From contig NC_057711.1 of the NCBI RefSeq assembly GCF_004010195.1, forward strand, positions 38,620,751-38,683,901: a DNA stretch of 63,151 bases. The letters run 5' to 3'. Under the pieces are notes generated by a model that had not been told where the DNA came from, did no database searches, and saw only the letters and a program-made list of their open reading frames with translations. Of this stretch, positions 1,010 to 61,339 are shown piece by piece (position 1 is the stretch's first letter; each line of letters begins with the position of its first letter). The translations under genes and the position numbers were made by a program. The DNA is from Chiloscyllium plagiosum. Its lineage: Eukaryota.

Positions 1010-2960
1010 GATTAAGAGGGGGAGAATTTCAAAGTTAGCCAGTAACACTAAGATGAGTGGTAGAGCAAAATGTGCAGAGGACGTTGGAAATCTGTAGAGT
1101 AAGTACAAAGTCTGGAAATGTGTTGCTGGAAAAGCGCAGCAGGTCAGGCAGCATCCAGGGAACAGGAGAATCGACGTTTCGGGCATAAGCCCATCTTCCT
1201 GAAGAAGGGCTTATGCCTGAAACGTCGATTCTCCTGTTCCCTGGATGCTGCCTGACCTGCTGCGCTTTTCCAGTAACACATTTCCAGCTCTGATCTCCAG
1301 CATCTGCAGACCTCACTTTCTCCTCTAAGTACAAAGTCTGCAGAGTGAGTGGGCAAAGGTCTGGCAGATGGATCCAATGTTGGTAAACGTGAGGTCATCC
1401 ATTTTGGTAGGAATAACCGCAAAATAGATTATTATTTATACAGTGAAAAATTGCAGCATGTTGCTGTGCAGAGCGACCTGGGTGTTCTTGTGTATGAATC
1501 TTAAAAAGGTGGTTTTTAGATGCAGTGATTGATTTAAGAAGGCAAGTAGAATATTGTCTTCCCTTGCTCGAGGGATGAAGTTTAAAGACAGGGAGGTTAT
1601 GCAGCAGCTATGTAGGGTGCTGGTGAGGCCACACCTGAAGTACTGTGTACAGTTTTGGTCTCCCTCCATGAGAAAGAATGTACTGGCACTGGAGGGAGTG
1701 CAGAGGAGGTTCACTAGATTGATTCTGGAGTTGAGAGGGTTGGTTTATGAAGAGAGATTGGGTAGAGACTATACTAAGTAGAATTTAGAAAAACTGAGGA
1801 GGGGAGAGGAAGGAAGGACTTATACAAGAATATATAAATTCAGAAGGGAATATATAAGATAGAGGCAGGGAGGTTGTTTCCACTGGCAGGTGAAACTAGA
1901 ATTGGGGGCAAAGCTCAAAATAAGGGGGAGCAGATTTAGGACTGAGTTGAGGAAGAACTTCTACACTCAAAGCGTTGTGAATCTGTGGATTTTCCTTTCC
2001 AGTGAAGAAGTTGAGACTACCTCATTGAATGTTTTAAGGCAAAGATAGATTTTTGAATAGTAAAGGAATTAAGGATTATGGTGAGTGGGTGGATAAGTGG
2101 AACTAAGTCCACAAAAAAGATTAGTCATGATCTTATTGAATGGCGGAGCAAGCTCAATGGGCCTACTCCTATTCTTATTTCTTACGTTCTTATGAATAAA
2201 GTACAAGAATAAACTTGCGGGGAATATACAAACTGATTCTAAAAGCTTTTATGGCGATGTAAAGTGAAAAAGCTTGGTGGAAACAATTACATTCAGAAAC
2301 AGGGGAAGTTAGAATGGAGAACAAAGAAACGACAGACCAACTAAATCCATATTTTGGTTCTGTGTTGCAAAGGAGGACTCAATAACATCCCACAAATGGT
2401 GGGGAACACAGGACCAAATGAGAGAGAGGAATCCAAGAAAATCACTGTTCGTGGGGAAATGGTGTTCGGGAAATTGATGGGACTAAAGGCGGTTAAATCC
2501 CCAGGGCCCGAAAATCTACATCCCAGAGAACCCTAAGAAAGTGGCCCAAGAAATACTGGATGCATTGATGATCAACTTTCAAGATTTCAAAATATAAAAT
2601 TTTGAAAGGACCAGACAGGGTAAACACAAAGAATGTTCCCGTTTACCAGGGAGTCCAGAACCAGAGGTCGCAGTTTAGGATACAACATGGGCCATTTTGG
2701 ACCGAGATGAGGGGAAAGTTCTTCACCCAGAGAGTGATGAGCCTCTGGAGATCTCTGCCACAGAAAGTGGTTGAGACGAAAACATTGAATTGTTTCAAAA
2801 AAGAGTTCTGTGTGGTTTTAAGATCTAAAGCGATAAGAAGGTATGGAGAGAAAACAGGAATTGGACAGTGAGTTCGATGATCAGCCTGATCATATTTAAT
2901 GGTGGAGGATGCTGGAAGTTCTGAATGGCCTAATCCTACTCTTAGTTTCACTGTTTCTAT
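1010..2960 (+). mobile_element. Cluster of decayed CR1 LINE ORF2 and 3' fragments
   Basis: LVRPHLKYCVQFWSP, VQRRFTRLI, KSPGP, FFTQRV motifs with stops and frameshifts. Confidence 0.85.
1115..1325 (+). mobile_element. Penelope-like hairpin insertion (inverted pLTR plus 3' tail) inside a CR1 fragment
   Basis: About 80-bp inverted arms (1112-1192 / 1207-1287); 15-bp TSD taagtacaaagtctg at 1100-1114 and 1326-1340; hammerhead core at 1199-1226. Confidence 0.85.
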
Positions 2961-3939: not shown

Positions 3940-4700
3940 TGGACTGTGTAGAGCAAACGCCTCAAATCCATCGAGAGTCGTTACCAGTGGTGCCTGCGCA
4001 AAATCCTGCAAATTGACTGGCAAGAGAGACATACAAACAAGAATGCTCTCACCCAGGCCAATATCCCCAGTATTGTGGCACTGGGTAGGCACAACCAGCT
4101 GCAGGCCACTTTGTCCGTACGCATGACACAAGACTCCCTAAACGAGTGTTGAGAGTGTAGTGCTGGAAAAGCATAGCAGGTCAAGCAGCATCCGAGGTGC
4201 AGGAGAATCAACAATTCTGACATAAGCCCTTCATCAGGAATGAAGGTTGTGGGTTGATGCTGAGAGATAAATGGGAGGGGGGTGGGGGTTGGGGAAAGGT
4301 AGCTGAGAAAGCGATAGGTGGATCAAGGTGAAGGAGAAGATGATAGATTGGGGGGGAAATGATGGACAGGTCCGGAGGGTGGTGCCAAGTTGGGCGCTTG
4401 GGACTGGGATAATGTGGGGTGAGGGGAAATAAGGAAGCTGTTGAAAGTGGCCCACTCCAAGCTTCCGAATGGTAAGTGATCACTAGGATGTCAGAAGGAA
4501 TGTTACAAAGACATTCTGAAAACCTCCATAAGCAAATGCATTGCTTGCCCAGAATGTGCAAACTGGAGAAGGCAGCAACTACTTGAAGAATCATTGAGTG
4601 GAGCATGTGGAGGCCATGCACCAGCAGTGGAAAGAATGCAGAGAAGCAGAGTGTCCTATCCATTTGTCTCCTCAAACACCACCTGCCCCACTTGTGGCAG
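3940..4700 (+). mobile_element. RTE-clade LINE 3' fragment (split by the Penelope-like piece)
   Basis: QWCLRKILQIDWQERHTN, an RTE-type C-terminal motif, at about 3984-4040. Confidence 0.6.
4140..4445 (-). mobile_element. Penelope-like pLTR fragment (degenerate hammerhead) interrupting an RTE LINE
   Basis: Same ctggaaaagca..caggtca.gcagcatcc motif as the 1115 and 44240 elements; cccttcatcaggaatg. Confidence 0.7.
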
Positions 4701-7053: not shown

Positions 7054-7201
7054 ACATTTTCTTTTGTTAAGACTTGTACAAGTCCATAGTGTTCAAGTAA
7101 ATTGATAGACATTTTACATTCAGCAAAACAATGGAAAGTAATAAGTTGAAACTTTATTGCTGGAACAGCACAGCAGGTCAGGCAGCATCCAGGGAACAGG
7201 A

Positions 7202-7239
7202 GATTCGACGTTTCGGGCACAGGCCCTTCTTCAGGAATC
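7202..7239 (-). ncRNA. Minimal type I hammerhead motif, identical to the 23482 copy, in AK6 intron 2 (antisense)
   Basis: Reverse complement of 7143-7240 equals 23481-23578 by eye. Confidence 0.85.
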
Positions 7240-7406
7240 ATTGCTCAGTCCTGCTATTATTACAGGGTTTCATGTATATAATATAATATATAATGTATCA
7301 GTTATACATTTTGCTTGCATTATATTTGCAAAGTGTGTGTTGATGTAATTTATTTATCCCTAGCTTTCTCTCAGGATTTATTGTGCTGATTGGAAAGATG
7401 ATGTAA

Positions 7407-8279: not shown

Positions 8280-9500
8280 AAAAGAACTTAATAGAGTTCT
8301 TTGAGGAAGTGACCAAGTTGATAGATGAAGTAAGGGCTGTTGATGTCATATACATGGACTTTAGTAAGGCGTTTGATAAGGTTCCCCATGGTAAACTAAT
8401 GGAGAAAGTGAAGTCACATGGTGTGCAGGGTGTTCTAGCAAGGTGGATAAAGAACTGGTTGAGCAACAGGAGACAGAGAGTAGTAGTTGAAGGGAGTTTC
8501 TAAAAATGGAGAAAGGTTACCAGTGGTATTCCACAGGGATCAGTGCTGGGGCCACTGTTGTTCGTGATATTCATAAGTGATCTGGAAGAGGCACTATTGT
8601 ATGATCAGCAGGTTTGCAGATGACACTAAGATTGTTGGAGTAGTAGAAAGGGACTGTCAAAGAATACAGGAGAATATAGATAGACTGGAGAGTTGGGTGG
8701 AGAAGTGGCAGATGGAGTTCAATCCAGGCAAATGTGAGGTGATGCATTTTGGGAAGTCTAATTCTAGAGCGAATTATACTGTGAACGGAAGAGACTTGGA
8801 AGAAGTTGATGAGCCTGGAGATCTGTGAGTTCAGGTCCATTGTATCCTGAAGGTTGCTGCACAGGTGGACAGAGTGGTCAAGAAAGCATATGGTATGCTT
8901 GCCTTCATCGGACAGGGTATTGAGTATAAGGGCTGGCAGGTCATGTTAAAATTGTACAAGACATTGGTTTGGCTGCATTTAGAATACTGTTCTGGTCGCC
9001 ACATTACTAAAAGGATGTAGATGCTTTGGAGAGGGTGCAGAGAAGGTTTATGAGGATGTTGCCTGGTATGGAAGGTGCTAGCTATGAAGACAGGTTTGTT
9101 TTGATTAGAAAAAAAGAGATTGAGGGGGTACCTGATTGAGGTCTACAAAATCATGAGGGGTACAGACAGGGTAGATAGAGATAAGCTCCTTCCCAGGGTG
9201 AAGGATTCAATAACAAGACATTCAAGGTGAGAGGTAAATAGTTTAAAGGTATACATGCAGCAAGTACTTTACACAGAGGGTGGTAGGTGCCTGGAACCCA
9301 TTGCCAGCAGAGGTAGTAGAGGCAGGCATGGTAGATTCATTTAAGGTGCATCTGTACACTTGCATGAGTAGTTGGAGAGCAGAGGGGTACAGATGCTTAA
9401 GAGTTGGGCGACAGGTTTAGACAGTGAATTTGGATAGGCTCAGGCCTGGAAGACCGAAGGGCCTGTTCCTGGGTAGTAAATTTTCTTTGTTCTTTGTAAT
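8280..9500 (+). mobile_element. 5'-truncated CR1 LINE
   Basis: DVIYMDFSKAFDKVPH, FADDTK, WQMEFN; CR1-type 3' UTR. Confidence 0.9.
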
Positions 9501-9807
9501 GTCTTAGATTAATAGAAATCTATGGGACAAAGTTTGGATTATGAAGTCAGGTCACAGATCAGCCAGGATCTTATTGAATTTTGACATAGTCATAGAGATG
9601 TACAGCACAGAAACAGACCCTTCAGTCCAACTTGTCCACGGCGACCAGATATCCTAACCCAATCTCGTCCTACTTGCCAGCGCACGGCCCATATTCCCAC
9701 CAAACCCTTCCTTTTCATTTACCCATCCAGAATGCCTTTTAAATGTTGTAATTAAACTAGCCTCCACCACTTCCTCTGGCAGCTCATTCCATACACGTAC
9801 CACCCTC

Positions 9808-9981
9808 AGTCCAAAGATGTATAGGTCAGGTGAATTGGCCATGCTAAATTGCCCATAGTTAGGTGCGTTAGTCAGGAGTAAGTATAGGGTATGGGTCTGG
9901 GTGGGATACTGTTCAGAGGGTCGGTGTGGACTTGCTGGGCCAAAGGGCCTGTTTCCATACTGTAGGGAATCTAATCTAATC
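9808..9981 (+). mobile_element. 5'-truncated HE1-like SINE inserted in CR1
   Basis: 3' half of the SINE with aatctaatctaat tail. Confidence 0.8.
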
Positions 9982-10709
9982 TCTGTGTGAAAATGTTGCC
10001 CGTTAGGTCTCTTTTTATATCTTTCCCCTTTCATCCTGAACCTATGCCCTCTAGTTCTGGACTCCCCAACCCCAGGGAAAATACTTTGTCTGTTTATCCT
10101 ATTCATGTCCCTCATGATTTCATAAACCTCTATAAGGTCACCCCTCAGCCTCTGACGCTCCAGGGAAAACAGCCCTCGCCTATTCAATCTTTCCCTATAG
10201 CTCAAATCCTCCAACCCTGGCAACATCCTTGTAAATCTTTTCTGAACTCTTTCAAGTTTCACAACATCTTTCCAATAGGAAGGAGACCAGAATTGCATGC
10301 AATATTCCAACAGTGCCTTAACCAATGTCCTGTACAACTGCAACATGACCTCCCAACTCCTGTACTCTGACCAATAAAAGAAAGCATACCTTCTTCACTA
10401 TCCTATCCACCTGCCACTCCACTTTCAAGGAGCTATGAACCTGCACTCCAAGGTCTGTTTGTTCAGCAACATTCCCTAGGACCTTAACATTAAGTGTAAA
10501 AGTCCTGCTAAGATTTGCTTTCCCAAAATGCAGCACCTCGCATTTATCTGAATTAAACTCCATCTGCCACTTCTCAGTCCATTGGCCCATCTGGTCAAGA
10601 TCCTGTTGTAATCTGAGGTAACCTTTTTCGCTGTCCACTACACCTCTAATTTTGGTGTCATCTGCAAACTTACTAACTGTACCTCATATGCTCACATCCA
10701 AATCTTTTA

Positions 10710-11464
10710 CAGGGAAACCTCCATTATCTGAATGAGATGGGTGGGCACTATTTCGTTCGGATAATCGATTAAGTGCTTTTCCTCTGGAGCTCGTAATTTT
10801 TAAAGTCTGCTCCCCATTCAGGAGACTAGCAGCAGCACACCGCGTGTGAACCACTGCCCCCGCCTACCCCCAAACCACTTCCAACACCGCTCGCGCTCCA
10901 ACCTGGTCCAACACCACCTCCCACTCCCCAACCCCGTCCAACACCTCANNNNNNNNNNNNNNNNNNNNNNNNNNNNNCCCCGTCCAACACCTTTCCCCCG
11001 GCCGCACCCAACTGCGTCCAACACCGCCCCGCGCCCCCCAACCCCATCCAACACCCCCACCCCGTGCCCCAAACCCATCCAACAGTGGACTGGTCACTAA
11101 CAACAAGGCTGCTGCTGCCTTTGTGGGGTAAGTCTCCAAATAGCGCGCACACAGCCACAGACACAACTTTTTACAGCAACTTTTTGACAGGTTCCAAGTT
11201 TGCCCAGTATAGGACAATGTTGGAGAAATTATCTGGGGAAGGGGTTTTAGGGTACACCCCTCTGTAGAATTCCAGGGAAAGTGTGGGGAGAGAGAGGGCT
11301 GGAGGTCATTGATTTGGAGACGGTGCCTGTTTATTCACTAAACAAAAGACATGATCAGTGTTGGAAACATGTCTTTAATGTAATGTTTCTATCGGGACCT
11401 CAAGATCTCCTTTGGATAATCCGATTTTTGGATAATTGGTATTCAGATAATCGAGGTTCCTTTT
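10710..11464. mobile_element. Non-autonomous Tc1/mariner-superfamily (pogo/Tigger-like) DNA element
   Basis: TA-flanked imperfect TIRs cagggaaacctccattatc / gataatcgaggttcctttt; C-rich interior; homologous to 23936-24952. Confidence 0.75.
10949..10977. other. Assembly gap (29 N)
   Basis: Run of N inside the C-rich interior of the MITE. Confidence 1.
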
Positions 11465-12578
11465 TATATACATTATGAAAAGTAGTGGACCCAGCACTGA
11501 TTCTTGTGGCACTCCACTGGTCACAGGCCTCCAGTCTGAAAAACAAACCTCCACCACCACCCTCTCTCTTCTACCTTTGAGCCAGTTCCATATCCAAATG
11601 GTGAGTTCTCCCAGTATTCCATTAGATCTAACCTTGCTCACCAGTCTCCCATAGGAAACCTTGTTGAACACCTTACTTGAAGTTCATATAGATCACATCT
11701 AGCGCTCTGCCCTCATCAATCCTCTTTGTTACATCTTCAAAAATCTCTATCAAGTTTGTGAGACATGATTGGAACAGACTCCAGGGGCTAAAAATAGCCT
11801 ATAATTTTCTTTCTTGCCCTCCTCTACCAAATATATATTTTAAGATATTTCAGCTCATGATTTCAACTTTTAAAATTTTAATTTTCACAAGAATAATGAG
11901 GTCTCTAACATATTCTTGGCTTTCACTGTATGTGATTGAATGACTAGATTTTTTTAGATCATGCTCCAGCAAATCAAATGAATTACTGATCTTAAAAAAA
12001 AAACTCTGCATTATCTATTAATGTAAAGGACCCCAGGTCTGTAATTTATTTTGTTCTGTCTTTTAATCTTTGTTTGTGGTCCCTCTTGTCAGCTATGGCT
12101 CCACCAGCTTCAGCAGCACTTTAATGCATCTTCCAAGAGCCATTGTGTGCCATGTCTGTGCTAGATTGGCAGGGTTTATCAGTCTGGAGTGAAGCTGTTT
12201 AGTGCCTTTGCTCAATATCCAAACAGCACAAATCACTGGATGGTGGTTATGATCAGAATTATGCCTGGTTCAACCCCATCCACTAAACATGAAGACATTA
12301 ACATTAATTTTAACACCACATTGCTGCTCTGAACTCAGTGCAGATGTGAAATGAGACTGTGCGCATCGCTAAGTGAAATATTTATCCACTCATTCATTCA
12401 TTGAAGTTTTTTTTGGGAGATCCACTACAAGCTGAGCTTCACTCAATCACAAATGTTTTACCACACAGTAACAAATTTACTGTTCAATTTTGAGCCAAAA
12501 TCTGTATATCTATATTTTCACATACGTGTACGCACCTGTGTGTTTGATAGCTATTATAGTACATTCATATAAATTTAA

Positions 12579-15492: not shown

Positions 15493-17605
15493 AGGTGTTG
15501 GTTGTATTTCCGTAATAATGTTTGTTACTGCTTTATTTACTGCTTTACTGTTTTTCCATTAACTGGAAGGAATGTTCTGATTAATTCAATATGTTTATCT
15601 TGATCTATTTTTCCAATATGTAACTTGTCATGCAAGACACAAAAAATCATGTCTATCTAGTAGAAATGTAAACTTTTCAATTTAAAAGTTTGGAATAGTG
15701 ATATCAAACTGACTTTGATATTTCTAGAATAAAATATTCAATAGAAAAATTACAACAGGCATGATATTCTAAAAATTTCCATTGCCACCACATTTTTTTT
15801 GTATTCGGTGTGATCCAGGAGCAAGAGTTGCAGGAGCCTCCGCCCCAGTCCTTGTCCAGCAGGTTAAAGAGTTTTGCTCCCTGTACGGGCAGGAATGGGA
15901 ACTGCAGGGAGGATGAGCTGATTGCCCACAGCACTGTGGTGAGGGAACTATTCAAGTTGGGGGAGAGAAGAGAAATGTCATTGTAATTGGGGAAAGAGGC
16001 ATAGACACTGTTCTCTGCCATCAGGATCAGGAGTCTCAAAGGTTGTGTTGCCTGTCTGGTGCTCAGGTTCAGGATATCTCGTTTGGGCTGCAGAGGAACT
16101 TGGAGGGGGGAGGGTAAAGATCCAGTGGTTGTAGTCCTCATAGGTACCAAAGACATAGATAAAACTAGCACAGAGGTTCTGCTAAGGGAGTATGAACACA
16201 GCCAGGAGCTAAATTAAGGAACAAACAAAAAGGTATTAATCTTTGGATTACTACTTGAGCCACGAGCTAATTGGCACAGTCATTTAGATTAAGCAGGTAG
16301 ATGCGTGGCTCAAAGATTGATGTGGGAGAAATGGGTTTGAATTCATGGAACGTTGGCACCAGTGCTGGGGAAGAAGGGACCTGTTCTGATAGGATGGTCT
16401 TCATCTGAACTGTGCTGGGACCAGAGTCCTACCGAATCACATTACTAGGGCTGTAGACAGGACTTTAAACTAAATAACTGAGGGAGAGGGTTCAGTTATA
16501 GGGGAAGTTAGAAAACCTGAATTAGAGAAGGATGTAAGAGTGCAGAACTCAGGGAAAGTTACTAAAATCTCCAGCACAGACACAAATAGGAGAAGAGTGT
16601 TTGGAAAGGGTTAACAATCAAACTTCAAGCACACTGGATAAATGAATGATAATGAGAAGAGGGACAGTTAATATAGGACAAAAGGTGTTATATCTGAAAT
16701 GATGCAGTATAAGAAGAAGGTAAATTAGATTGTGGCGCAGATCGAAATTGGCAGGTATGACATAGTGGGCATCACAGAGACGTGGCTGCAAGGGGATCAG
16801 GTTTGGGGCTGAATATTCAAGGATTTACATCCTATTGAAAAGATAAGTGAAATTAAATCAATAGTGAGACACACAGTAGGGTGAGATGATGTAGAATCTG
16901 TGTGTGTAGAATTGAGGAACCGCATAGGTAAAAAACCATAGTTGGAGTTATGTGCAGGCCTCCAAACAGTGGTCAGCAGCTGGTGTGAAATATACTCATA
17001 GATATAGGAAAGATGTGTAGGAAAGGCCAAGTTACAGTGATCATGGGGGATTTCAATATGCAGGTGGACTGGGAAAATCAGGTTGGTAGTAGATTTCAAG
17101 AAAAGAAATTTGTGAAATGTCCACAAGATGGCTTTTTGGAGCAGTTTGTGGTGGAGCCCAGCAGGGAACAGTCAATACTGGATTTAGTGTTGTGCAGTGA
17201 GGCAGACTTGATAAGGAAGCTTAAGATCAAGGAACTCTGAGGTCATAGAGATGTACAACATGGAAACAGACCCTTTGGTCGAAACTATCCATGCTGACCA
17301 GATATCCCAACCCAATCTAGTCCCACCTCCCAGCACCCGGCCCATATTCCTTCAAACCCTTCCTATTCATATACCCATCCAAATGCCTCTTAAATGTTGC
17401 AATTGTACCAGCCTCCACCACTTCCTCTGGCAGCTCATTCCACACACACCACCCTCTGTGTGAAAAAGTTGCACTGTATATCTCTTTTATATCTTCCTCC
17501 TCTCACCCTAAACCTATGCCCTCTAGTTCTGGACTCGGTGACCCCAGAGAAAAGACTTTGCATATTTACCCTATCCATGCCCCTCATAATTTTGTAAACC
17601 TCTAT

Positions 17606-18806
17606 AATGCCAAAGTAAATCACTGAGTAGACCTCAGCGAGAATATTGTATCCAGTTTTAACTACCATCTCATAGAGTGGCAAAACCTTGAAGTGAATAG
17701 GTAAAGGGACGGCTGGAAAATGGGAAGCCTTCAGAAATGAGATATCGAGAATCCAGAGAAAGGTTTTTCCTGTTAGGGTGAAAAGAAAGACTGGTAGGTA
17801 TAGGGAATATTGGATGACTAAAGAAATTGAGGATTTGGTTAAGAAAAAGAAGGACGCAAATGTAAGGTATAGACAGGATAGATCGAGTGAATCCTTAGAG
17901 TATAAAGGAAGTAGGAGTGTACTGAAGAGGGAAATCAGGAGGGCAAAAGGGGGCATGAGATAGCTTTGGCAAATAGAACTAAGGAGAATCTAATGGGTTT
18001 TTACAAATACTTTAAGAACAAAAGGGTAACCAGGGAGAGAATAGGGCTCGTCAAAGATCAGCAAGGGGGCCTTTGGGTAGAGGCGCAGAAAATGAGGGAG
18101 ATACTAAATGAGTATTTACTGTGGAAAAGGATATAGAAGATATAGGCTGTAGGGAAATCGATGGTGACATCTTGCAAGATGTCACCAATTACAGAGGAGG
18201 TAGTGCTGGATGCCTTGAAACGTGTAAAGTTGGATAAATCCCGAGGATCAGGTGTCCCCTCAAACTCTGTGGAAAGCTAGAGAAGTGATTGCTGGGTCTC
18301 TTGCTGAGATATTTGTATCATCGATAGTCACAAGTGAGGTGCTGGAAGACTGGAGGTTGGCTAACGTGGTGCCACATTTAAGAAGCTGAACAGGCTGGGA
18401 CTGTTTTCCCAGGAGCGTCGAAGGCTGAGGGGTGGTCTTATAGAGGTTTACAAAATTATGAGGGGCATGGATAGGGTAAATAGGCAAAGTCTTTTCCCTG
18501 GGGTCGGGGAGTCCAGAATTAGAGGGCATAGGTTTAGGGTGAGAGGGGAAAAATATAAAAGAGACCTTAGTGGCAACCTTTTCACTCAGAGGGTAGTACA
18601 AGTATGGAATGAGCTGCTAGAGGAAGTGGTGGAGGCTGGTGCAATTGCAATATTTAAGAGGCATTTGGATGGGTATATGAATAGGAAGGGTCTGGAGGGA
18701 TATGGGCCGGTTGCTGGCAGGTGAGACTAAATTGGGTTGGGATATCTGGTCGGCATGGACGGGTTGGACTGAAGGGTCTGTTTCCATGCAGTACATCTCT
18801 ATGACT
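17606..18806 (+). mobile_element. Internally deleted CR1 of the same family inserted in opposite orientation
   Basis: GRYREYWMTKEIE... linker joined at about 18380 directly to the 3' end and UTR. Confidence 0.75.
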
Positions 18807-20768
18807 CTAAGGTCAACCCTCAGCCTCCAATGCTCCAGGGAAAACATCCCCAGCCTGTTCAGCCTCTCCCTATAACTCAAATCCTCCAACCTTGGCAACA
18901 TCTTTGTAAATATTTTCTGAACCCTTTCAAGTTTAACAACATCTTTCCGATAGGAAGGAGACTAGAATTGCATGCAATATTCTAACGGCGGCCTAACCAA
19001 TGTCCTGTACAGCCGCAACATGACCTCCCAACTCCTGTACTCAAACTCTGACCAATAAAGGAAAGCATACCAAACGCCTTCTTCACTATCCTATCTACCT
19101 GCAACTCCACTTTCAAGGAGCTATGAACCTGCACTCCGTTGAAATCTGAGGTAACCCTCTTTGCTGTCCACTACACCTCCAATTTTGGTGTCACCTGCAA
19201 ACTTACTAACTGTACCTCTTATGCTCGTATCCAAATCATTTATGTAAATGACAAAAAGTAGAGGACCCAGCACTGATCCATGTTGCACTCCACTGGTCAC
19301 AGGCCTCCAGTCTGAAAAACAACCCTCTACCACCACCCTCTCTCTTCTACCTTTGAGCCAGCTCTGTTTCTAAATGGCTAGTTCTCCCTGTATTCCGTGA
19401 GATCTAACCTTGCTAATCAGTCTCCCATGGGGAACTTTGTCGAACACCTTACTGAAGTCCATATAGATCACATCTACCGCTCTGCCCTCATCAATCCTCT
19501 TTGCTACTTCTTCAAAAAACTCAATCAACTTTGTGAGACATGATTTCCCACATACAAAGCCATGTGGACTATCCCTAATCAGTCCTTGCCTTTCCAAATA
19601 CATGTACATCCTGTCCCTCAGGATTCTCTCCAACAACTTCCCCACCACCGACGTCAGGCTCACTGGTCTATAGTTCCCTGGCTTGTCCTTACCACCTTTC
19701 TTAAACAGTGGCACCACGTTAGCCAACCTCCAGTCTTCCGGCACCTCACCTGTGACTATCGATGATACAAATATCTCAGCAAGAGGCCTGGCAATCAGTT
19801 CTCTAGCTTCCCACAGAGTTCTCGGGTACACACATTCAGGTCCTGGGGATTTGTCCACTTTTATGTGTTTCAAGACATCCAGCACTTCCTCCTCTGTAAT
19901 ATGGACATTTTGCAAGATGTCACCATCTATTTCCCTACAGTCTATATCTTCCATATCCTTTTCCACAGTAAATACTGATGCAAAATACTCATTTAGTATC
20001 TCCCCCATTTTCTGCGGCTCCACACAAAGGTCATCTTGCTGATCTTTGAGGGGCCCTATTCTCTCCAAAGTTACCCTTTTGTCCTTAATGTATTTGTAAA
20101 AACTTTTTGGATTTTCCTTAATTCTATTTGTCAAAGCTATCTCATGACCTCTTTTTGCCCTCTGATTTCCCTCTTAGGTATATTCCTACTGCCTTTATAC
20201 TCTTCTAAGGATTCACTCGATCTATCCTGTCTATACCTGACATATGCTTCCTTCTTTTTCTTAACCAAACCCTCAACTTCTTTAGTCATCCAGCATTCCC
20301 TATACCTACCAGCCTTTCCTTTCACCCTGACAGGAATATACTTTCTCTGGATTCTCGTTATCTCATTTCTGAAGGCTTCCCATTTTCCAGCCATCCCTTT
20401 ACCTGCGAAAATCTGCCCTCAATCAGCTTTCGAAAGTTCTTGCCTAATACTGTCAAAATTGACCTTTCTCCAATTTAGAACTTCAACTTTTAGATCTGGT
20501 CTGTTCTTTTCCATCACTATTTTAAATCTAATAGAATTATGGTCGCTGGCCCCAAAGTGCTCCCCCACTGACACCTCAGTCACCTGTCCTGCCTTATTTC
20601 CCAAGAGTAGGTCAAGTTTTGCACTTTCTCTAGTAGGTACACCACATACAGAAAATTGTCTTGTACACACTTAACAAATTCTTCTCCATCTCAACCCTTA
20701 ACAATATGGCAGTCCCAATCTATGTTTGGAAAGTTAAAATCCCCTACCATGACCACCCTATTATTCTT

Positions 20769-23013: not shown

Positions 23014-23469
23014 ACCCTATTATTCTTACAGATAACTGAGATTTCCTTGCAAGTTTGTTTCTCAATTTCCCTCTGACTATTTGGGGATCTATAATACAAT
23101 CCCAATAAGGTGATGATTCCTTTCTTATTTCTCAGTTCCACCCAAATAACTTCCCCGGATGTATTTCCAGGAATATCCTCCCTCAGCACAGCTGTAATGC
23201 TATCTCTTATCAAAAATGCCACTCCCCTCCTCTCTTGCCTCGCTTTCTATCTTTCCTGTAGCATTTGTATCCTGGAACATTAAGCTGCCAGTTCTGCCCA
23301 TCCCTGAGCCATGTTTCTGTAATTGCTATGATATCCCAGTCCCATGTTCCTAACCATGGCCTGAATTCATCTGCCTTCCCTGTTAGGCCCCTTGCATTGA
23401 AATAAATGCAGTTTAATTTATTAGTTCTATCTTGTCCATGCCTGCCCTGACTGTTTGACTCACTTCTGT

Positions 23470-23610
23470 GAAGAGTGTTCTGATTCCTGAAGAAGGGCCT
23501 GTGCCCGAAACGTCGAATCTCCTGTTCCCTGGATGCTGCCTGACCTGCTGTGCTGTTCCAGCAATAAAGTTTCAACTTTGATCTCCAGCATCTGCAGACC
23601 TCACTTTCTC
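23470..23610 (+). mobile_element. Solo Penelope-like pLTR insertion
   Basis: 11-bp TSD ctcacttctgt at 23459-23469 and 23611-23621; contains hammerhead and AATAAA. Confidence 0.85.
23482..23519 (+). ncRNA. Minimal type I hammerhead ribozyme motif in a Penelope-like pLTR
   Basis: GAUUC-CUGAAGA-A-GGGC(cugu)GCCC-GAAA-CGUC-GAAUC: perfect 5-bp stem I, 4-bp stem II, full catalytic core, GUC triplet ending at 23514. Confidence 0.85.
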
Positions 23611-23935
23611 CTCACTTCTGTTCTCATCTGTACCAGTCTCAGATTGAATTTACTCTGCAATTTGAGAGGGAGAAGATAGAATCAGAGATAATGGTATTAC
23701 AGCTGAATAAAGGCAACTGCAGATGCGTGAGGGAGGAGCTGGGTAGAATTGACTGGGAGCAGAGCTTAGCAGGAAAGACATTGGAACAGCAATGGCCAGA
23801 GTTTCTGGAAGTAATTCAGGAGATACAGCAGAGATTCACCCTGAGGTAAAATTAAGCATGTTGCAGGGAGGATGGGGCAACCATGGCAAACTAGCGAAGT
23901 CAGGAAGAGCATAAAAGCAAAGGAGAAAGTATATA

Positions 23936-27374: not shown

Positions 27375-27485
27375 TTAGAGTGGTGCTGGGAAAGCACAAC
27401 AGGTCAGGCAGCATCTGAGGAGCAGGAAAATCGACGTTTCGGGCAGCAGCCCTTCTCCAGCATCTGCAGTCGTCACTTTCACCTG
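27375..27485. mobile_element. Truncated Penelope-like pLTR (inverted arm fused to tail)
   Basis: Shares caggtcaggcagcatc...tcgacgtttcgggc and ctccagcatctgcag with the 1115 element. Confidence 0.7.
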
Positions 27486-39009: not shown

Positions 39010-41570
39010 GATTACTATAGATTGAGAGTCCTTGATATCAATAGCATGGAGACAGGCCCTTAGGCCCAAACTGGTCCACGCTGACCAAAACGTCTGTCCA
39101 CACTAACCCCATTTCCCTACACTTGGCCCCATATCCTCCTAATCCTTTGCAATCCATGTATTTGTCTAAATGCCTTTTAAATGTTGTTCATGTACCCACC
39201 TCAAACAATTCCGCTGGTAGCTCATTCCATATGTGTTTTAAAAAAAAGTTATCCCCCAGGTTCCCTTTTTTTATTCTTTCTGCTCTAACCTTAAACTGAT
39301 GCCCTCTAGTTCTTGATTCTCCGACCCTGGGGAAAAGAATAAGTGCATTCACCCTATGATCTTATGCACTTCTATGATAGCCCCCCTCAGTCTCCTACGC
39401 TCTAAAGAAAAAAAGTCTTAGCTTGTCCAACCTCTCCCTATAATTCAGACCATTGAGTCCAGGCAACATTCTTGTAAATTTCTTCTGCACCTTTGCTGTT
39501 TAATAACATCCTTCGTATAAGAGGTGACCAAAACTGAACACAATATTCCAAGTGTGGCCTCACAAATGTCCTCTATAACTGCAGCATAATTTCCCAACTT
39601 GTTTACTCTGTGCCCTGACTGACAAAAGCCAGTGTGCCAAAAGCCGCCTTCACTGCCCTGTCTACCAGTAACTCCACTTTCAGAGAACTGAACCTGAACT
39701 CCCAAGATTCCTCTATTCCTTTGCACTCCAGGCCCTATCATTCACTATGAAACTCCTGCCTTGATTTGACTTTGCAAATGCAAAACCTCACACTTATCTC
39801 TATTAAACTCCACTTTCCATTTCTTGGTCCACTTCGCCAACTGATCAAGGTCCTGTTACGATTTCTGATAACCTTCCTCACTGTTCACAATACTGCCTGT
39901 TTTAGTGTCCTCTGCATACTTAGTAATCATGTCTTGTACGTTCTCATCCAAGTCATTGACATAGATAACTAACAGTAATGGGCTCAGCACCGACCCCTGA
40001 GGCACATCACTAATCACAGGCCTCCAGTCCAACAAGCACCCTTCCACTATTACCTTCTGCTTCCAACCATCAAGCCAATTTTGTATCCAATTTACCAGTT
40101 TGCCCTGGATTCCATGCGATCTAACCTTCCAGAGCAGTCTGCCATTTGAAACCTTATCAAAGGCTTTACTGAAATCCATAGACTACATCTACTGCCCTGC
40201 CCTCGTCAACCTTCCTGGTCACTTCATCAAAGAACTCTTTTTTTTTTTAAAAAAGAAATTGAGGCATGATCTCCCACTCTCAAAGCCATGCCTGCTACTC
40301 CTAATCAAGCCATGTCTTTCCAAATACATATACATCTTATCTCTCAGAATCTTCTCAAGTACCTTACTCACTACAAATGTTAAGCTTACTGATCTGTAGT
40401 TCCCTTTTCTTTGAATAATGGCACAACATTTGCTACCCTCCAGTCTTCTGGGACCTCACCTGTGGCTGACGATGATGTAAAAATATCAGCCAGGACCCCT
40501 GCAATTTCTTTTCTAGCCTCTTGCAGTGTTCTTGGATGTTTCTGGTCAGGACCAGGAGATTTATCCACCTTCATACATTCTAATACATCCACCACCACCT
40601 CTACTGTGTTGTCGACTGTCCCCAGGATTTCACCACTAACTTCAAGTTCTCAAGTCTTCGTGTCTTTTTCCACGGTAAACGCAGAAGAAATATTCATTGA
40701 AAAACCTTGTCCATTTCCTTCTGTTCTACACATACATGTCCTCTTTGGCTTTTGAGGGGCCCTATTCTCTCTCTGTGTCACCTGTCCTGCCCTAGTTACC
40801 AAGAATAGGACAAGTTTAGCCCTTTTAAGAGTAGGACCCTCTATATACTGCTTGAGGAAACTTGCCTGAATGCATTTAACAAATTCCACCCCATCTAAGC
40901 CCTTAATGATCTGGCAGTTCCTGTCTATGTTAGGAAAATTATTATGCCAACCTTATTGGTCCTGCAAGTCTCCCCAGTCTCCCTACATATTTGTTCCTCT
41001 AATTCCCATTTACTGCTGGGGGGCCTGTAGTACAAACCCAATAACGTCACCATTCTATTCTTATTTCTTAGCTCTGTCCACAAAGCCTCACTGGATGATC
41101 CTTCAGTTAGTTTGATTCTGACAACTGGTTTCATACTCGCCTTCATCAAAAATGCAACTCCCCCTTCCCTTCTTCCACCACCTCTGTCCTGCCTAAAGCA
41201 CCTGCAGCCTGGCACATGAAGCTCCCAGTCCTGTCCCTCCCTTAGCCATGTTTCTGTAATGACTATAATATCCCAGTCCCACATACCTATCCACACTCTA
41301 AATTCATCGACCTTATCTGTCAGTCCTCTTGTCTCAAAAACAAATGCAATTTAATGCAACAGGCATTCCTTGCTCCATATTGTTTTCCGGCCTGTCTCTT
41401 CAACTTAGTATTTCTGATTACTGTATCTTCTTTTGAGCCTTGCACTCGCCTCCCTGCTGTTGAGGATCCCCCCCTGCTAATCTGGTTTATACCCTCCCTT
41501 GCAGCATGAGCAAACCTAGCCGCCAAAATATTAGTCCCCTTCCAGTTCAGGTGCAACCCATCTGTAAGCA
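39010..41570 (-). mobile_element. Decayed, internally deleted CR1 LINE (ORF1 end to 3' UTR) in a CCDC125 intron
   Basis: DGLHLN (ORF1 esterase), WDIIVITETWL, KSPGPD, DFSKAFDKV. Confidence 0.88.
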
Positions 41571-42699: not shown

Positions 42700-43000
42700 A
42701 ATCCACTCCCCTCTCCTTTGGGCTCTATCTCTACCGATTGTCTATTCTTTATTTACCCTCCACCCCCACAACCTATCTTCTGCATAAAAACTGACATTTT
42801 CCTAGCTGCTGCTCCTTGGATGCTGTCTGAACTGCTGTGCTCTTCCAGCACCACTAATCCAAAATCTGGTTTCCAGCATCTGCAGTCATTGTTTTTACCT
42901 ATTTTCCTAGCTACCATGAGTTCTGAGGAAGGGTCACCGGATCCAAAATGATTTTTTTTTCTTGGATGCTGCTGAGCTTTTCCAGCAATTTCTGTTCTTG
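42700..43000 (+). mobile_element. Rearranged Penelope-like pLTR fragments inside a SINE
   Basis: ggatgctg..tga.ctgctgtgc...ccagcatctgcag; degenerate core ctgaggaagggtcaccggatcc at 42923. Confidence 0.6.
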
Positions 43001-43517: not shown

Positions 43518-44239
43518 GTAAAAAAAAATTATTTTTCTCCAATTCCTCTTAATTGATTTTTTTCAAAACAGTTACATTTCAATTCAAATCTTTCTAGAAT
43601 GGTCTGAAGAAAAGTATCTAACTTGATCATTTTAGACAAAAAACTTTGACATATTGCAAATAAAACATAAGCTGTAATTCTCCTCATTTTCAAATACGAC
43701 CCAATTATGTTTGAAGTTATAACAGTTTGTCCATACATTTGTTAATATAACAGTGTTCAATATGTCATTCTCTGCAAATGTTTTCGTCTTGGTGTATGTA
43801 TTTCAACCTCTTTTTCCCTGTATCCTTCATGATCATGTTTATGTTGGTGACTTTTGACAGTACCAGGACAGACCAACTGTCATCTCTAGACTGTATTAGC
43901 TCAATTTTCTTTAAATTGGATAACTCAGAATCTTCCTTTCCTCTTTTTCTCAAGTGGGTTATTAAGGGCTTTTTCATTGTAGTTTGATTAAGGGAACAAC
44001 ATTAAAATGACCTGAACATGTTATCATTGCATTTACAAACTAGTACAAAAGTAGATTTTCAAAAAGCAAGTTAGGAAAGCTAGGACCAATTAGTGACCAA
44101 GGATTTCATCTGTGGACACAAAGGATGTGGCTAACCTATTCAATGAGTACATTGCATTTGACTTCACAAGAGGATGCTGCCATTGTCACAGAAATAATTA
44201 AGAGATAATGAGGACTAGATGCTGGAGAGATCAGTCAAT

Positions 44240-45195
44240 AAAGTGTCTGGCTGGAAAAAGCACATCAGGTTAGGCAGCATCTGAGGAGCAAGAGAATTGA
44301 CATTTCGGGCATAACCCTTCATCAGGAATGGGGAGGGGAGGGGTCTCAGAAATAAATAGGGGGGGTGGGGCTAGGGTAAAGGTAGGTGGAAGAAGGTAGG
44401 AGGTGATTGTGGTAGGTAGGTGGGAAGTGTGGAGTGAATAGGTGGGAAGGAAGATGGACAGATAGGTCAGGTCAAGTCAAAAGGGCAGAGCCAAGTAGCA
44501 GGGTTAGATCTGCGATGGAGGTGTGGAGGGGAAATTTGGAAACTGGTGAATTCAATGTTGAGGCCATGTGGTTGTAGGCTGAGTGGAAAATGAGGTGTTC
44601 CTCCTCCAGTCTGCAGGTGGCCTTGTTTCGGTGGTGGAGGAGGCAGAGAATGGACATGTCATTGGGGGAGTGAGAAGGGGATTGAAACGGATGGCCTCAG
44701 GAAGATAGGGTTGGTTGATGTGTACGAACCAGAGATGTTCCCCGCACCACTTGCAAGTTTGCACTCCGGCTATCCAATATAGAGGAGACCACATGGAAAG
44801 CAACAGATGTAGTAAATGGGATTTGAGGATATGCAAGTAAATCTCTACCGGATTTGGAATGAATGCTTTCTCTTCTGCTTCAGGAGCCTACAAATACACG
44901 ACCTCAGCATTGAATTCACCAGTTTGTAAATCTCTCCTCTACCCCAAATCCAACCCTCTGACTTGGCCCCGCCCTTTTGTCCTGACTTACCTGTCTATCT
45001 TCCTTCCCACCCAATCGCTCCACACTTCCCATCGATCTATCACAATCAGTTCCTACCTTTGCTCACCTATCACCATCCCACCTACGTTTCCCATAGCCCC
45101 ACCCCCCTCCAGTCCTGATAAGGGTTATGCTCAAAACGTTAACTCTTTTGCTTCTCAGATGCTGCTTGACCTGCTGTGCTTTGCCCAGCCCTACA
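44240..45195 (-). mobile_element. Penelope-like element 3' fragment with GIY-YIG endonuclease remnant and inverted pLTR
   Basis: Minus strand 44844-44773 reads RFTCISSNPIYYICCFPCGLLYIG; later RLEEEHLIF; hammerhead motif at 44294-44330 (-); degenerate inverted copy at about 45112-45190 (+). Confidence 0.8.
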
Positions 45196-58377: not shown

Positions 58378-58800
58378 CTAGAGTTATACAGCATGGAAAC
58401 ATAACCTTCATGCCAACCATATTCCCAAATTAAACAAATTCCACTTTTTGTTTGGCCCACATCCCTCTGAAACCTTTTCTGTTAGTGTACTTAACCAAAT
58501 GTCTTAAATGTTGTAACTGTACCTGCATCCGCCGCTGTCTCTGGCAGCTCATTCCATGTATGAACCACTGTTTTTTAAAAAATTGTTCTCCTTATATTCT
58601 TAACTTTCTCCTCTCACATTAAAAATATGCCCCATAGTTTTGAACTCCCCCCACCCTGTCATTCACCTTATCTATGCCTGTCATAATTTTTTAAACCTCT
58701 ATAAGGTCACCCCATAACCTCCTATGCTCCAGTGGAAAAAAACTTCAGCTTCTCCAACCTGTCCTTTTAACTCAAAACCTCCATTCCTGGCAACATCCTA
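58378..58800 (-). mobile_element. CR1 3' end fragment
   Basis: Homologous to 9590-10230 and 17242-17605. Confidence 0.8.
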
Positions 58801-58859
58801 ATTTGATTTTGTTCTTAGTAAAATATTGGTAATCTAATGTAAATATTAAAATGAGACAA

Positions 58860-59121
58860 GTCAAAGCTTTTCATCTTGCACTTATCAGGACTGGGACACA
58901 AGATAGTGACTTGGCAAAGGAACACTAAAGAGCATGGGAAGAGAATGTTGAATGATTGGCATGGTAATCCAGTAGGAACAGTTAATGACCCATTTCAGTT
59001 CTCAGACCAGCCAGCACTCTGGTAATTCTTCCACTTAAACTGTATAAATAGGCTTCCACTTTTTTCTTAGTTTTGTTTTTTGCATTCTAGCCCTGATGAG
59101 TGCAAGACAGGAAGCTTCAAC
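58860..59121. mobile_element. Second copy of the third-family inverted-repeat element, downstream of the CCDC125 stop
   Basis: Left end reverse complement gtcctgataagtgcaagatgaaaagctttgac; right end gccctgatgagtgcaagacaggaagcttcaac. Confidence 0.6.
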
Positions 59122-59404
59122 CAATCTATCTTTTTAGTTTCAGGCTGGCAAGCAATTATTTAGAGTCTAATTAGTTTGCACAGTTTAATTTGCCTTACAA
59201 AATTAGTGAGTGACTTACTAAATCTAATTATATTCATATATTGAATGTACAAATATTTATGAATGCAACTTGGCACTTAACATTATTTAAGAGTCTAGAA
59301 ATATTTATTTAATACATAACTTCAATGTGGAATATAAATCAAACGAAGCAAAGTGGCAGTGCTCCAGCCAGATTGACCCTTAAGAACTGTTTTAGTTCTG
59401 ATCA

Positions 59405-59727
59405 TGGGTGGCACGGTGGCACAGATGGGTGGCACAGTGGTTAGCACTGCTGCCTCACAGCACCAGGGACCCAGGTTCATTTCCTGCCTCAGGCGACTGA
59501 CTGTGGAGTTTGCACATTCTCCCCGTGTCTGCGTGGGTTTGCTCCGGTTTCCTCCCACAATCCAAAAATGTGCAGGTTAGGTGAATTGGCCATGCTAAAT
59601 TGCCTGTAGTGTTAGGTGAAGGGGTAAATGTAGGGGAATGAGTCTGGGTGGGTTGCACTTCGGCGGGGCGGTGTGGACTTGTTGGGCTGAAGGGCCTGTT
59701 TCCACACTGTAAGTAATCTAATCTAAT
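59405..59727 (+). mobile_element. Full-length tRNA-derived HE1-like (V-SINE) element
   Basis: A-box-like ggcacagtggttagc, B-box-like ggttcatttcc, V-domain gtggagtttgcacattctccccgtg, CR1-like 3' tail with (aatct)n. Confidence 0.85.
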
Positions 59728-61339
59728 TAAGACATGAAGGTGATAATGAAAATTGTCACGATGCTTTTGACCTTTTGAAGATCACAAAGTGTATCTGGAG
59801 CTTTGAAAGATGGTATTCAGAAAGAAGATTTCTGCAAAACTATACCATTATGAAAGACATTTGCAAAGTTATTTCAGATTAAATTGCAAGTGGACATCAA
59901 ATTTAGGATTGGTATTTTAAAAAACTTTCATCCCATGAAAGAAGTAATTTATGTTTTCATAGCACCTATCATGCTACATTCAAAAGTGGTTTGCAATGAA
60001 TTCTTTTTGCAGTGTGCTGAGTACTATTTAAGCAATGTAAGTAGTAAAATGTCCCTTCTAATAACAGCTTTTTCAGGACACAATGGCATGCTGTGAAAAT
60101 TGGCCAACTGATTGTGTTTCCCTTCCCAGCAAGCCAGTCAGGAAGCTTGCAGAATTTACTGTCAAATTGGATCAGGCTAGAAATATGCAAGCCATTTACC
60201 TTGATTGACTGACTATATTGAATAGATATTGTTGGGTCAATGTGGCAAGGTTTCAGATAGGCTGGACATTTGGTAGAACTGTTTTGAAAACCGCCTCGCT
60301 CCTAGAGTTGGCTCAATCAATATGGAAATTCAGTATCCAGTACTGCCTTTTATAACACATCTTATTGGGCTAGAAACACATAGCTGAATTATGTTAAATA
60401 TATCAGTTTGATTCAGCGATGTAAATACATAGGAGAAATCTGCATGTTGGTTCAATGATAGTAAGACATTATACTTGGGAATGCCCTGGAGAACTGTAAT
60501 TAAATTGGCCACTTGAATCAGAGGGCCTGATACTCCAGAGACTATGTCTGCACAAGAAGCAGGAACCTTGGAAACAAGAAACACAGGCTCCACTTCAGTT
60601 TGGTCAGCTGTAACTCAGGTAGTACAAATTTCTTTATCACTTTGTGCATTCAAAGCAAATTTTTTAAAAAGTGGGATAACATAGTAATTTAAGAACTGCA
60701 AGGTTACTCAGGAAATAGAGGGAAAGACTGGTTTTATAGAATTACGTGGATATAACTTGTGTATCAACAATAATAAACTACTTCTCATGGTAAACTGTAT
60801 CTCATTAGTCTAAAAAGCGTCCCAGTCAGTAAGCAAGTAAATTAAACACACACAAACGGTGCAGCAGTTAATATGCACACCAGCTTGTTGTCGCAAACAA
60901 ATAAACAACCAATCAGTCAATTTTTACTAGTATTGGGTTAAGGATATATGTTTTGAGGAGAATTCCCCTGTTCTGCTTCAATTAAGCCATGAGATCACCG
61001 TGTCCATTTTAAGCCTTTCTGACATTACCTTATTTGCCATAAAACCTCAACAGGGAATTTGATTTGAGAAAATGCAACAGATGTTTTAGAGTGGAACGAA
61101 GTTGGTATTGTCTAATTTTATCCAAATGCAATATGAAAAATTGCACTTGTATCAAAGGGATCACTAACGCAATTCACAAGAGAATAGTTTTGACTTTAAC
61201 AATTTGAATTTATATAGACAGTTTACTTAGTTGACATGCCAGATAAAAATAGAAAATGACAAAACTAATTTTATCCATTCATGAGAATCTCTCATTTTGG
61301 TTTTTAAATAGCATCCCCTTATTTTCTTACTCTGCTGTA

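What the first reader, a model, noticed from the sequence alone, without database searches (positions are those of the whole stretch)
23470..23610. Young 141-bp mobile unit built around an intact minimal hammerhead ribozyme
Seen: an 11-bp TSD flanks a 141-bp insert consisting of a hammerhead (stem I GAUUC/GAAUC, core CUGAAGA, stem II GGGC/GCCC, GAAA-CGUC), an AATAAA and a short tail. Stem III is reduced to the palindrome ACGU. Known: Penelope-like elements carry minimal type I hammerheads in their pseudo-LTRs, proposed to cleave as dimers. Inference: this is a recently mobilised ribozyme-containing unit, either an extreme 5' truncation or a non-autonomous retrozyme-like family of sharks.
Basis: partly seen in the sequence, partly recalled or inferred. 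Interest (0 to 1): 0.72.

Follow-up and report, generated by a model that had tools for sequence, protein, structure and literature searches.

The report
Solo Penelope retrotransposon end with hammerhead
This 141-base insert is a fresh, lone copy of the hammerhead-bearing end of a very abundant protein-coding jumping gene (a Penelope-like element), not a separate mini-element; most sister copies begin at the same spot just before the uncut ribozyme, which likely marks where the element's RNA starts.

Summary
Observation confirmed: exact 11-bp TSD (paralogous empty sites carry it once), complete minimal type I hammerhead, predicted cut after 23514. Corrections: the element proper is 23483-23610; the first 13 bases are junction filler that supplies the fifth helix I pair; AATAAA is not conserved; the 'tail' is the Penelope 30-40-bp tail, not poly(A). 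The unit is the pseudo-LTR plus tail of a young Penelope-like element (likely Neptune clade): 19,009 exact 26-mer hits; identical copies run into an ORF start or follow a GIY-YIG ORF end; RT is seen in a sister subfamily. In 100 unselected copies 58 begin within ten bases at the ribozyme's 5' edge and none at the cut; 3' ends fall at two sites; 24 of 24 head-to-head pairs join one tailed and one tail-less arm. Not a retrozyme: no fixed-period arrays, no ends at the cut, and the RNA is copied uncut. Best mechanism (inferred): internally primed reverse transcription running off the RNA's 5' end. No cap signature or RNA data support that step. The scan reached the same reading before on other DNA. 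Known kind; modest mechanistic interest.

The parts
23459..23469 (+). Left copy of the 11-bp target site duplication
   Evidence: present once in paralogous empty sites
23470..23482 (+). 13-bp junction filler, not part of the family. 23472-23480 is a 9-base inverted copy of the element's own sequence 11-19 bases upstream of the usual 5' edge; 23482 supplies the fifth helix I pair
   Evidence: 84 of 20,000 random 13-mers of the window match that region as well; at most 6 bases match the local flanks
23483..23577 (+). Pseudo-LTR body of a young Penelope-like element, from the commonest 5' edge (q14) to the tail-less 3' site (q107-108)
23483..23518 (+). Minimal type I hammerhead: helix I 23483-86/23515-18, core 23487-93, bulged A 23494, helix II 23495-98/23503-06, GAAA 23507-10, palindromic ACGU 23510-13, predicted cut after C23514; cleavage untested
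   Evidence: sequence, folds, pattern of subfamily changes, descriptor in PMC4209133
23563..23568 (+). AATAAA, specific to the young subfamily; not a conserved signal, no poly(A) follows
   Evidence: (4 of 104 older copies)
23578..23610 (+). Penelope 'tail' (about 33-36 bp) between the two 3' end sites; in long copies it is in frame with, and just upstream of, the first ATG of the ORF
   Evidence: tail described in PMC8557442 and PMC11167929
23611..23621 (+). Right copy of the TSD; its first three bases equal the element's next three (q142-144), a 3-base microhomology
23140..23458 (-). Host repeat: decayed coding piece that looks like the AP-endonuclease start of a CR1-type LINE (label recalled, from the translated motif; no library scan)
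   Evidence: very high depth of paralogous contigs
7143..7240 (-). Second copy in the window, 100% identical over 98 bases, tail-less, same 5' edge, no evident TSD
1106..1325 (.). Head-to-head pair (tail-less arm plus tailed arm) of the older sister subfamily, with a TSD

Best explanation
The insert is a solo pseudo-LTR plus tail of a young, very abundant Penelope-like retrotransposon (likely Neptune clade), likely made when the element's own enzyme cut the target, primed reverse transcription inside the element's RNA at the tail site, copied through the uncut hammerhead and ran off what is likely the 5' end of that RNA. Shown: identity with the pLTR of a protein-coding element; two fixed 3' sites (q107-108, q142-144); a sharp 5' edge (q12-20); an intact, uncut ribozyme motif in the copy; TSD; 1-5 bases of microhomology at 3' junctions. 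Inferred: staggered cut by the GIY-YIG endonuclease; priming of each target strand at one of the two RNA sites, so that two run-off cDNAs joined head to head give the fold-back pairs, while a single primed strand plus end joining with filler gives a solo copy like this one; the 5' edge as RNA start; jumps from that edge into the ORF giving pLTR-ORF piece-pLTR loci. The hammerhead is kept by selection in the source lineage but is a passenger in this copy, which is predicted to be a dead end.
For: Identity: pLTR followed by the ORF start at 98-100%; Cys-rich linker, GIY-YIG (Pfam PF01541, E 1e-4, just above cut-off), 3' UTR and a 95% pLTR in L066; RT (PF00078, E 1e-6, just under cut-off), linker, endonuclease motif and an 88% pLTR in L166. 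Abundance: 19,009 exact hits, 0 for the control. Ends in the first 100 hits on contig C1: 58 at q11-20, 25 at q21-81, 17 further upstream; rate of ending 0.116 per base at q11-20 against 0.0045 downstream and 0.011 upstream; solos alone 22 of 42, 0.090 against 0.0038. 3' ends: 36 of 100 at q107-110, 50 at q142-148. 24 of 24 head-to-head pairs have one tailed and one tail-less arm (about 3e-8 if arms were independent); 18 of 24 have a 12-17-bp TSD; 22 of those 36 junctions overlap the element by 2 or more bases against about 16% expected. Anolis PLE protein in vitro cuts and extends both strands, starts RT at two internal sites bounding the tail, and uses uncleaved RNA (PMC11167929). The Drosophila Penelope promoter lies inside the transcribed pLTR (PMC2377424). 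The native bases at q12-17 resemble an initiator consensus (recalled, not tested).
Against: For the RNA-start step: no excess of a cap-derived G before q14 in non-palindromic junctions (6 of 19 against 28% expected, p = 0.46; the 8 of 8 G in fold-backs can be the mirror of the native C). No pile-up of read starts in the one raw RNA run with reads (789 laid, both strands, mostly from other copies). 17 of 100 copies extend upstream of the edge, and this copy's filler matches native upstream sequence, so a template reaching past q14 was at hand. A second hammerhead family in the genome has a looser edge: 12 of 30 run 90 or more bases upstream. In D. virilis the hammerhead lies at an intron end, not at the start site. 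For identity: no single unbroken pLTR-ORF-RT-EN-pLTR copy of the young subfamily was seen (runs of N follow a 36-bp coding repeat), and no tree was built.
Confidence: 0.72

Rival explanations
1. Same identity, but the fixed 5' edge is a stop, not a start: RT primed at the 3' pLTR stalls or is released just after crossing the hammerhead or a protein bound there, or a 5'-3' exonuclease trims the RNA up to the folded ribozyme.
For: Same end distribution; no cap-G excess; the filler of this copy derives from upstream native sequence; 17 of 100 copies pass the edge; ends of a second family also gather around its hammerhead but less sharply.
Against: A structure would be expected to block RT on its 3' side (about q50), where ends are rare (5 of 100 at q42-48); native helix I is marginal (pair probability about 0.01 with the native upstream sequence); tailed copies need an RNA that reads from pLTR into the ORF start, which is the front of the transcript (inference).
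Confidence: 0.3
2. A discrete non-autonomous retrozyme-like family whose RNA unit is cut out by the hammerhead (possibly circular) and mobilised in trans.
For: Small size, TSD, very high copy number, clustered ends, conserved ribozyme; some loci hold two or three pLTRs in tandem; a preprint derives animal retrozymes from PLE pLTRs and counts dispersed monomers among them (10.64898/2026.07.22.740005).
Against: 0 of 100 5' ends at q45-46 and no 3' end at q45; distances between tandem pLTRs vary (about 224, 461, 478, 588, 608, 628, 664, 684 bases) and the spacers are pieces of the ORF; the filler of this copy is not shared by other copies beyond a few bases; no sequence private to a short family was found; the hammerhead is the minimal PLE type, not the canonical retrozyme type.
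Confidence: 0.07
3. Ordinary random 5' truncation of target-primed reverse transcription from the element's 3' end, with no special boundary.
For: PLE insertions are known to be heavily 5'-truncated (PMC8557442); 42 of 100 ends lie outside q11-20.
Against: The rate of ending jumps about 25-fold in a 10-base window and falls again upstream, also in solo copies and at junctions inside pLTR-ORF piece-pLTR loci.
Confidence: 0.08

Closest known systems
Endonuclease-positive Penelope-like elements, Neptune/Nematis type: pLTR, 30-40-bp tail, inverted 5' arm, solo pLTRs (PMC8557442, PMC3846280)
   Same: pLTR with hammerhead, tail on one arm only, head-to-head inverted arms, partial tandems, TSD of about 8-17 bp, single ORF with RT, Cys-rich linker and C-terminal GIY-YIG
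   Different: Very short pLTR (about 95 + 35 bp); most copies start at one place rather than being variably truncated; the 3' sites lie upstream of the first in-frame ATG; 3' junctions show short microhomology with the target
Minimal hammerheads (min-HHR) of metazoan PLEs (Cervera and De la Pena 2014, PMC4209133)
   Same: Type I topology, 4-5-bp helix I, bulged base before helix II, G10.1-C11.1, no helix III, palindromic 15.2-16.2, mostly single dispersed motifs
   Different: Helix II has only 4 bp; copies are almost identical, as reported only for D. virilis; activity is untested for this family
PAc, Poseidon element of Anolis carolinensis (Frangieh et al. 2024, PMC11167929)
   Same: Two fixed 3' ends bounding a tail; insertion does not need ribozyme cleavage; both target strands can be extended, which fits the paired arms
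   Different: Other clade; PAc start sites lie inside the ORF and were reported as not homologous to the target, whereas here 1-5 matching bases are common; a fixed 5' edge is not described in the parts read
Metazoan non-LTR retrozymes (PMC7229834; bioRxiv 10.64898/2026.07.22.740005)
   Same: Short, non-coding, type I hammerhead, related to PLE pLTRs
   Different: Retrozymes are head-to-tail arrays of 150-450-bp units with mostly canonical hammerheads, processed cut-to-cut into circles; this is a single minimal motif with ends away from the cut

Membership tests
EN+ Penelope-like element | Sequence is the terminal repeat of an ORF with RT and C-terminal GIY-YIG endonuclease | tested here: met
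   GIY-YIG ORF end, 3' UTR and 95% pLTR in L066; RT, linker and endonuclease motif with an 88% pLTR in L166; ORF start after 98-100% pLTRs. RT of the young subfamily itself not seen.
EN+ Penelope-like element | Optional 30-40-bp tail at one end; inverted 5' arm; partial tandems | tested here: met
   Two 3' sites about 35 bp apart; 24 of 24 pairs tailed plus tail-less; tandems
EN+ Penelope-like element | RT groups with PLE RTs in a phylogeny | not tested
   No tree built; no reference PLE proteins were fetched
Neptune clade | Cys-rich Zn-finger-like linker between RT and EN | tested here: met
   Three-cysteine motif before the GIY-YIG in L066, L166 and most of L152-L181. The feature is shared with Nematis, so Neptune is likely, not proven; the preprint found Neptune and Poseidon in vertebrates.
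Minimal type I hammerhead of PLEs | Complete core, helix II with G10.1-C11.1, bulged base, palindromic 15.2-16.2, short helix I | tested here: met
   Sequence, folds
Minimal type I hammerhead of PLEs | Conservation or covariation of the core across lineages | tested here: met
   Majority changes between subfamilies fall at N7, loop II and outer helix I only; core, helix II and palindrome keep their majority base in 122 young, 79 middle and 28 old copies. Other families in the held DNA share the layout with another helix II, one with an AGCU palindrome. No compensatory pair change within the family.
Minimal type I hammerhead of PLEs | Self-cleavage as a dimer or with protein help | not testable with these tools
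   Cofolding allows pairing of the ACGU palindrome between two copies (ribozyme-like dimer -18.9, two monomers -20.0, best dimer -24.1 kcal/mol): possible, not favoured
Non-LTR retrozyme | Head-to-tail array of a fixed unit with a hammerhead in each unit | tested here: not met
   Single unit here; tandem loci have variable ORF-derived spacers; no fixed-period array among 100 sampled hits
Non-LTR retrozyme | Unit defined by ribozyme cuts | tested here: not met
   0 of 100 5' ends at q45-46; one each at q44 and q47, three at q42
Non-LTR retrozyme | Circular or monomeric RNA in vivo | not testable with these tools
   Reads and contigs on hand cannot show it

The most novel reading that the evidence does not exclude
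The tens of thousands of 95-130-bp stubs are the genomic record of a strong-stop-like first step of Penelope replication: a two-subunit enzyme primes both target strands at two fixed sites near the front of the element's RNA, using a few matching bases, and each cDNA runs off the RNA's 5' end at the foot of the hammerhead. Failure to jump to the 3' repeat leaves solo and fold-back stubs; a successful jump would regenerate the pseudo-LTR, for which no mechanism is established.
Probability: 0.4. Interest if true: 0.62.

Novelty: new member of a known kind. Interest (0 to 1): 0.3.

Why it matters
As an object it is ordinary: one of at least ten thousand near-identical stubs of a known class. [quoted passage not shown] A fixed 5' edge, strict tail/no-tail pairing and short priming homology make a run-off-and-jump model testable with one CAGE experiment and one in vitro reaction, and they argue that the ribozyme does not define the mobile unit. 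Four literature searches listed no paper on a fixed 5' edge at the transcript start, but the library lacks most subscription papers, including Arkhipova 2006 and Evgen'ev and Arkhipova 2005, which may describe it.

Tried and rejected
Rfam scan: no hammerhead family matched; 10 weak hits, all far below gathering score, taken as chance. Whole-unit folding: not better than shuffles. First attempt to reach a full-length element (L031-L033): no RT; only the ORF start; Pfam does not recognise the ORF start. Genome-wide counts of 5' ends by gapped patterns could not be run, so end statistics rest on the first 100 of 19,009 hits, all from the first 18 Mb of contig C1. The top-scoring hits were not used for end statistics because they are selected to match this copy's junction. 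Run search: no RNA holder listed. X20 laid no reads; X19 reads cover both strands and mostly run on into unrelated sequence, i.e. read-through of dispersed copies; no start or end pile-ups: uninformative on start site or cleavage. Test for polymorphism of this insertion: the flanks are a high-copy repeat, so the joined forms cannot be assigned to this locus. Cap-G test: negative. Excess of ends near the cut: 5 of 100 at q42-48 looked high, but none is at q45-46 and three carry four bases 5' of the cut, so rejected. Recurrent targeting of this host site: the one candidate (L194) proved to be a different site. AATAAA as poly(A) signal: rejected. Lunse et al. on dimer cleavage is not held; only its title was seen in a reference list. 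No supplements were read; those of the preprint (closed) may list shark families.

Full report
Coordinates: q1-q141 = window 23470-23610.

1. Observation. The 11-bp repeat flanks it exactly. The flanks belong to a high-copy repeat that translates on the minus strand into what looks like the endonuclease start of a CR1-type LINE (label recalled). Paralogs give the empty site: contigs from 4 of 4 laid runs join 23458 to 23611, skipping 152 bases, and L064 reads through the site. So the TSD is real; polymorphism of this allele is not shown. The hammerhead has the full core, a bulged A, a 4-bp helix II, the ACGU palindrome in place of helix III, and C17 at 23514. Helices I and II have pair probabilities of 0.8 and 1.0 in the 141-mer; the unit as a whole folds no better than shuffles (z -0.65), and Rfam does not report it.

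2. The family. A 26-base stretch (q82-107) has 19,009 exact matches in the genome and its control none; these count arms, and 48 of the first 100 sit in 24 pairs. The window holds a second copy identical over 98 bases at 7143-7240 and six older loci. No genomic copy shares q1-7 at high identity: the best hits start at q8-10. Long copies have a different, fixed sequence upstream of q14, so q1-13 is junction filler. Nine of its bases are an inverted copy of native sequence 11-19 bases upstream of q14 (84 of 20,000 random 13-mers do as well).

3. What the family is. In some copies q141 runs on into an open frame; a search with that frame gave 2,937 candidates, and of 30 loci examined many carry the pLTR directly in front of it at 96-100% identity. 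L066 holds this ORF start, a 36-bp coding repeat, a run of N, then a Cys-rich linker, a GIY-YIG domain (Pfam E 1e-4), a 3' UTR and a pLTR 95% identical to ours. L166 holds RT (Pfam E 1e-6), linker, endonuclease motif and a pLTR 88% identical. That is the layout of an endonuclease-positive Penelope-like element, and the linker points to Neptune or Nematis (passages of PMC8557442 and PMC3846280). I saw no unbroken full-length copy and built no tree.

4. Where copies begin and end. I took the first 100 exact hits on contig C1, chosen only by q82-107. 3' ends: 36 at q107-110, 50 at q142-148, the rest scattered or slightly overextended. The 35 bases between are the tail known for the class. There is no poly(A); AATAAA is in 4 of 104 older copies, which end at the same sites. 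5' ends: 58 at q11-20 (peak q14-15), 10 at q21-28, 3 at q29-41, 5 at q42-48, 7 at q49-81, 17 upstream of q11. The rate of ending is 0.116 per base at q11-20, 0.0045 downstream, 0.011 upstream; for the 42 solo arms 0.090, 0.0038, 0.012. None ends at q45-46, where a ribozyme-cut RNA would start. All 24 head-to-head pairs combine a tailed and a tail-less arm; 18 have a 12-17-bp TSD, and 22 of their 36 junctions share 2 or more bases between target and element (about 16% expected). The window copy shares three. Loci with two or three pLTRs have ORF-derived spacers of many lengths, with the downstream pLTR again starting at q10-14.

5. The ribozyme. Across 122 young, 79 middle-aged and 28 old copies, majority changes in q14-51 fall on N7, loop II and the outer part of helix I; core, helix II and palindrome keep their bases apart from CpG decay. 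Other families in the genome repeat the layout with other stems and, in one, an AGCU palindrome. So the motif is under selection in source elements. In the native context helix I has four pairs and is marginal (probability about 0.01). Published minimal hammerheads do not cut as monomers and cut weakly as dimers (PMC4209133, results and discussion read); the Anolis one cuts only with its protein and is not needed for insertion (PMC11167929, main text read). This copy has no intact same-strand partner nearby in the window, so it is predicted to be inert.

6. Mechanism. Shown: the end distributions, pairing rule, TSDs, microhomology, uncut ribozyme. From the literature: two internal RT start sites and extension of both strands, and a promoter inside the transcribed pLTR (PMC2377424, passages). 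Inferred: the enzyme makes a staggered cut, primes at q142-144 and/or q107-108 near the front of an RNA that starts at about q12-15, and runs off. Two cDNAs give a fold-back, one gives a solo copy with filler, a jump gives longer forms. Against this: no cap-G excess (6 of 19, p = 0.46), no read-start pile-up in a library ill suited to the question, upstream sequence in this copy's filler and in 17 of 100 copies, and a looser edge in a second family. A stop at the ribozyme or at a bound protein remains a real rival (0.3).

7. Comparison and novelty. It is a member of the EN+ Penelope-like class by the tested features and works like one. It fails two defining features of non-LTR retrozymes (PMC7229834, passages; preprint 10.64898/2026.07.22.740005, parts 1-3 of 5 read). 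PMC6765202 was seen as passages. I formed the run-off reading in note 2 before looking at earlier findings; the scan had reached the same reading several times on this and other genomes, which is not independent support. Verdict: real, young, a new member of a known kind; interest 0.3, with a mechanistic lead at about 0.4 probability that would merit about 0.6.

Noticed in passing
L201-L230; L066:1020-1160; L033:7710-7830: A second young hammerhead family with another helix II and an AGCU palindrome; 30 copies identical over 86 bases, many fold-backs; about half end within 10-45 bases upstream of the cut, 12 of 30 run 90 or more bases upstream. Its link to a PLE ORF was not checked.
   Followed up: partly
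window 31487 (+); L114, L180: A third minimal-hammerhead family with a longer helix II (3 decayed copies in the held DNA).
   Followed up: no
L038, L045, L052, L062: The ORF carries a long 36-bp tandem repeat coding for a 12-residue Pro/Thr-rich unit after its N-terminal domain; most assemblies of long copies break there.
   Followed up: partly
L034, L036, L037, L040, L042, L046, L057, L061, L063: pLTR-ORF piece-pLTR loci in which the second pLTR starts at q10-14 after a variable length of ORF, often with 1-3 shared bases at the junction; others jump from the ORF start to the 3' UTR or endonuclease end (L040, L041, L056, L060).
   Followed up: partly
window 4148-4241, 27384-27480, 42806-42885, 44202-44329, 45113-45180: Five older, decayed copies of the same pLTR family (74-83% identity).
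   Followed up: partly
window 23512-23517 in subfamily comparison: The young subfamily differs from older ones at q48, turning a U-U mismatch in helix I into a U-A pair, and gained the AATAAA, which also puts a stop codon in the ORF frame upstream of the first ATG.
   Followed up: partly
window 23640-23860 (+) against 23140-23458 (-): The host repeat seems to change orientation near the insertion site (LINE-like pieces on opposite strands); not analysed.
   Followed up: no
window 17242-20736, 8285-11770, 39045-41355, 58454-62119: Many mutually similar LINE-like fragments, some inverted.
   Followed up: no
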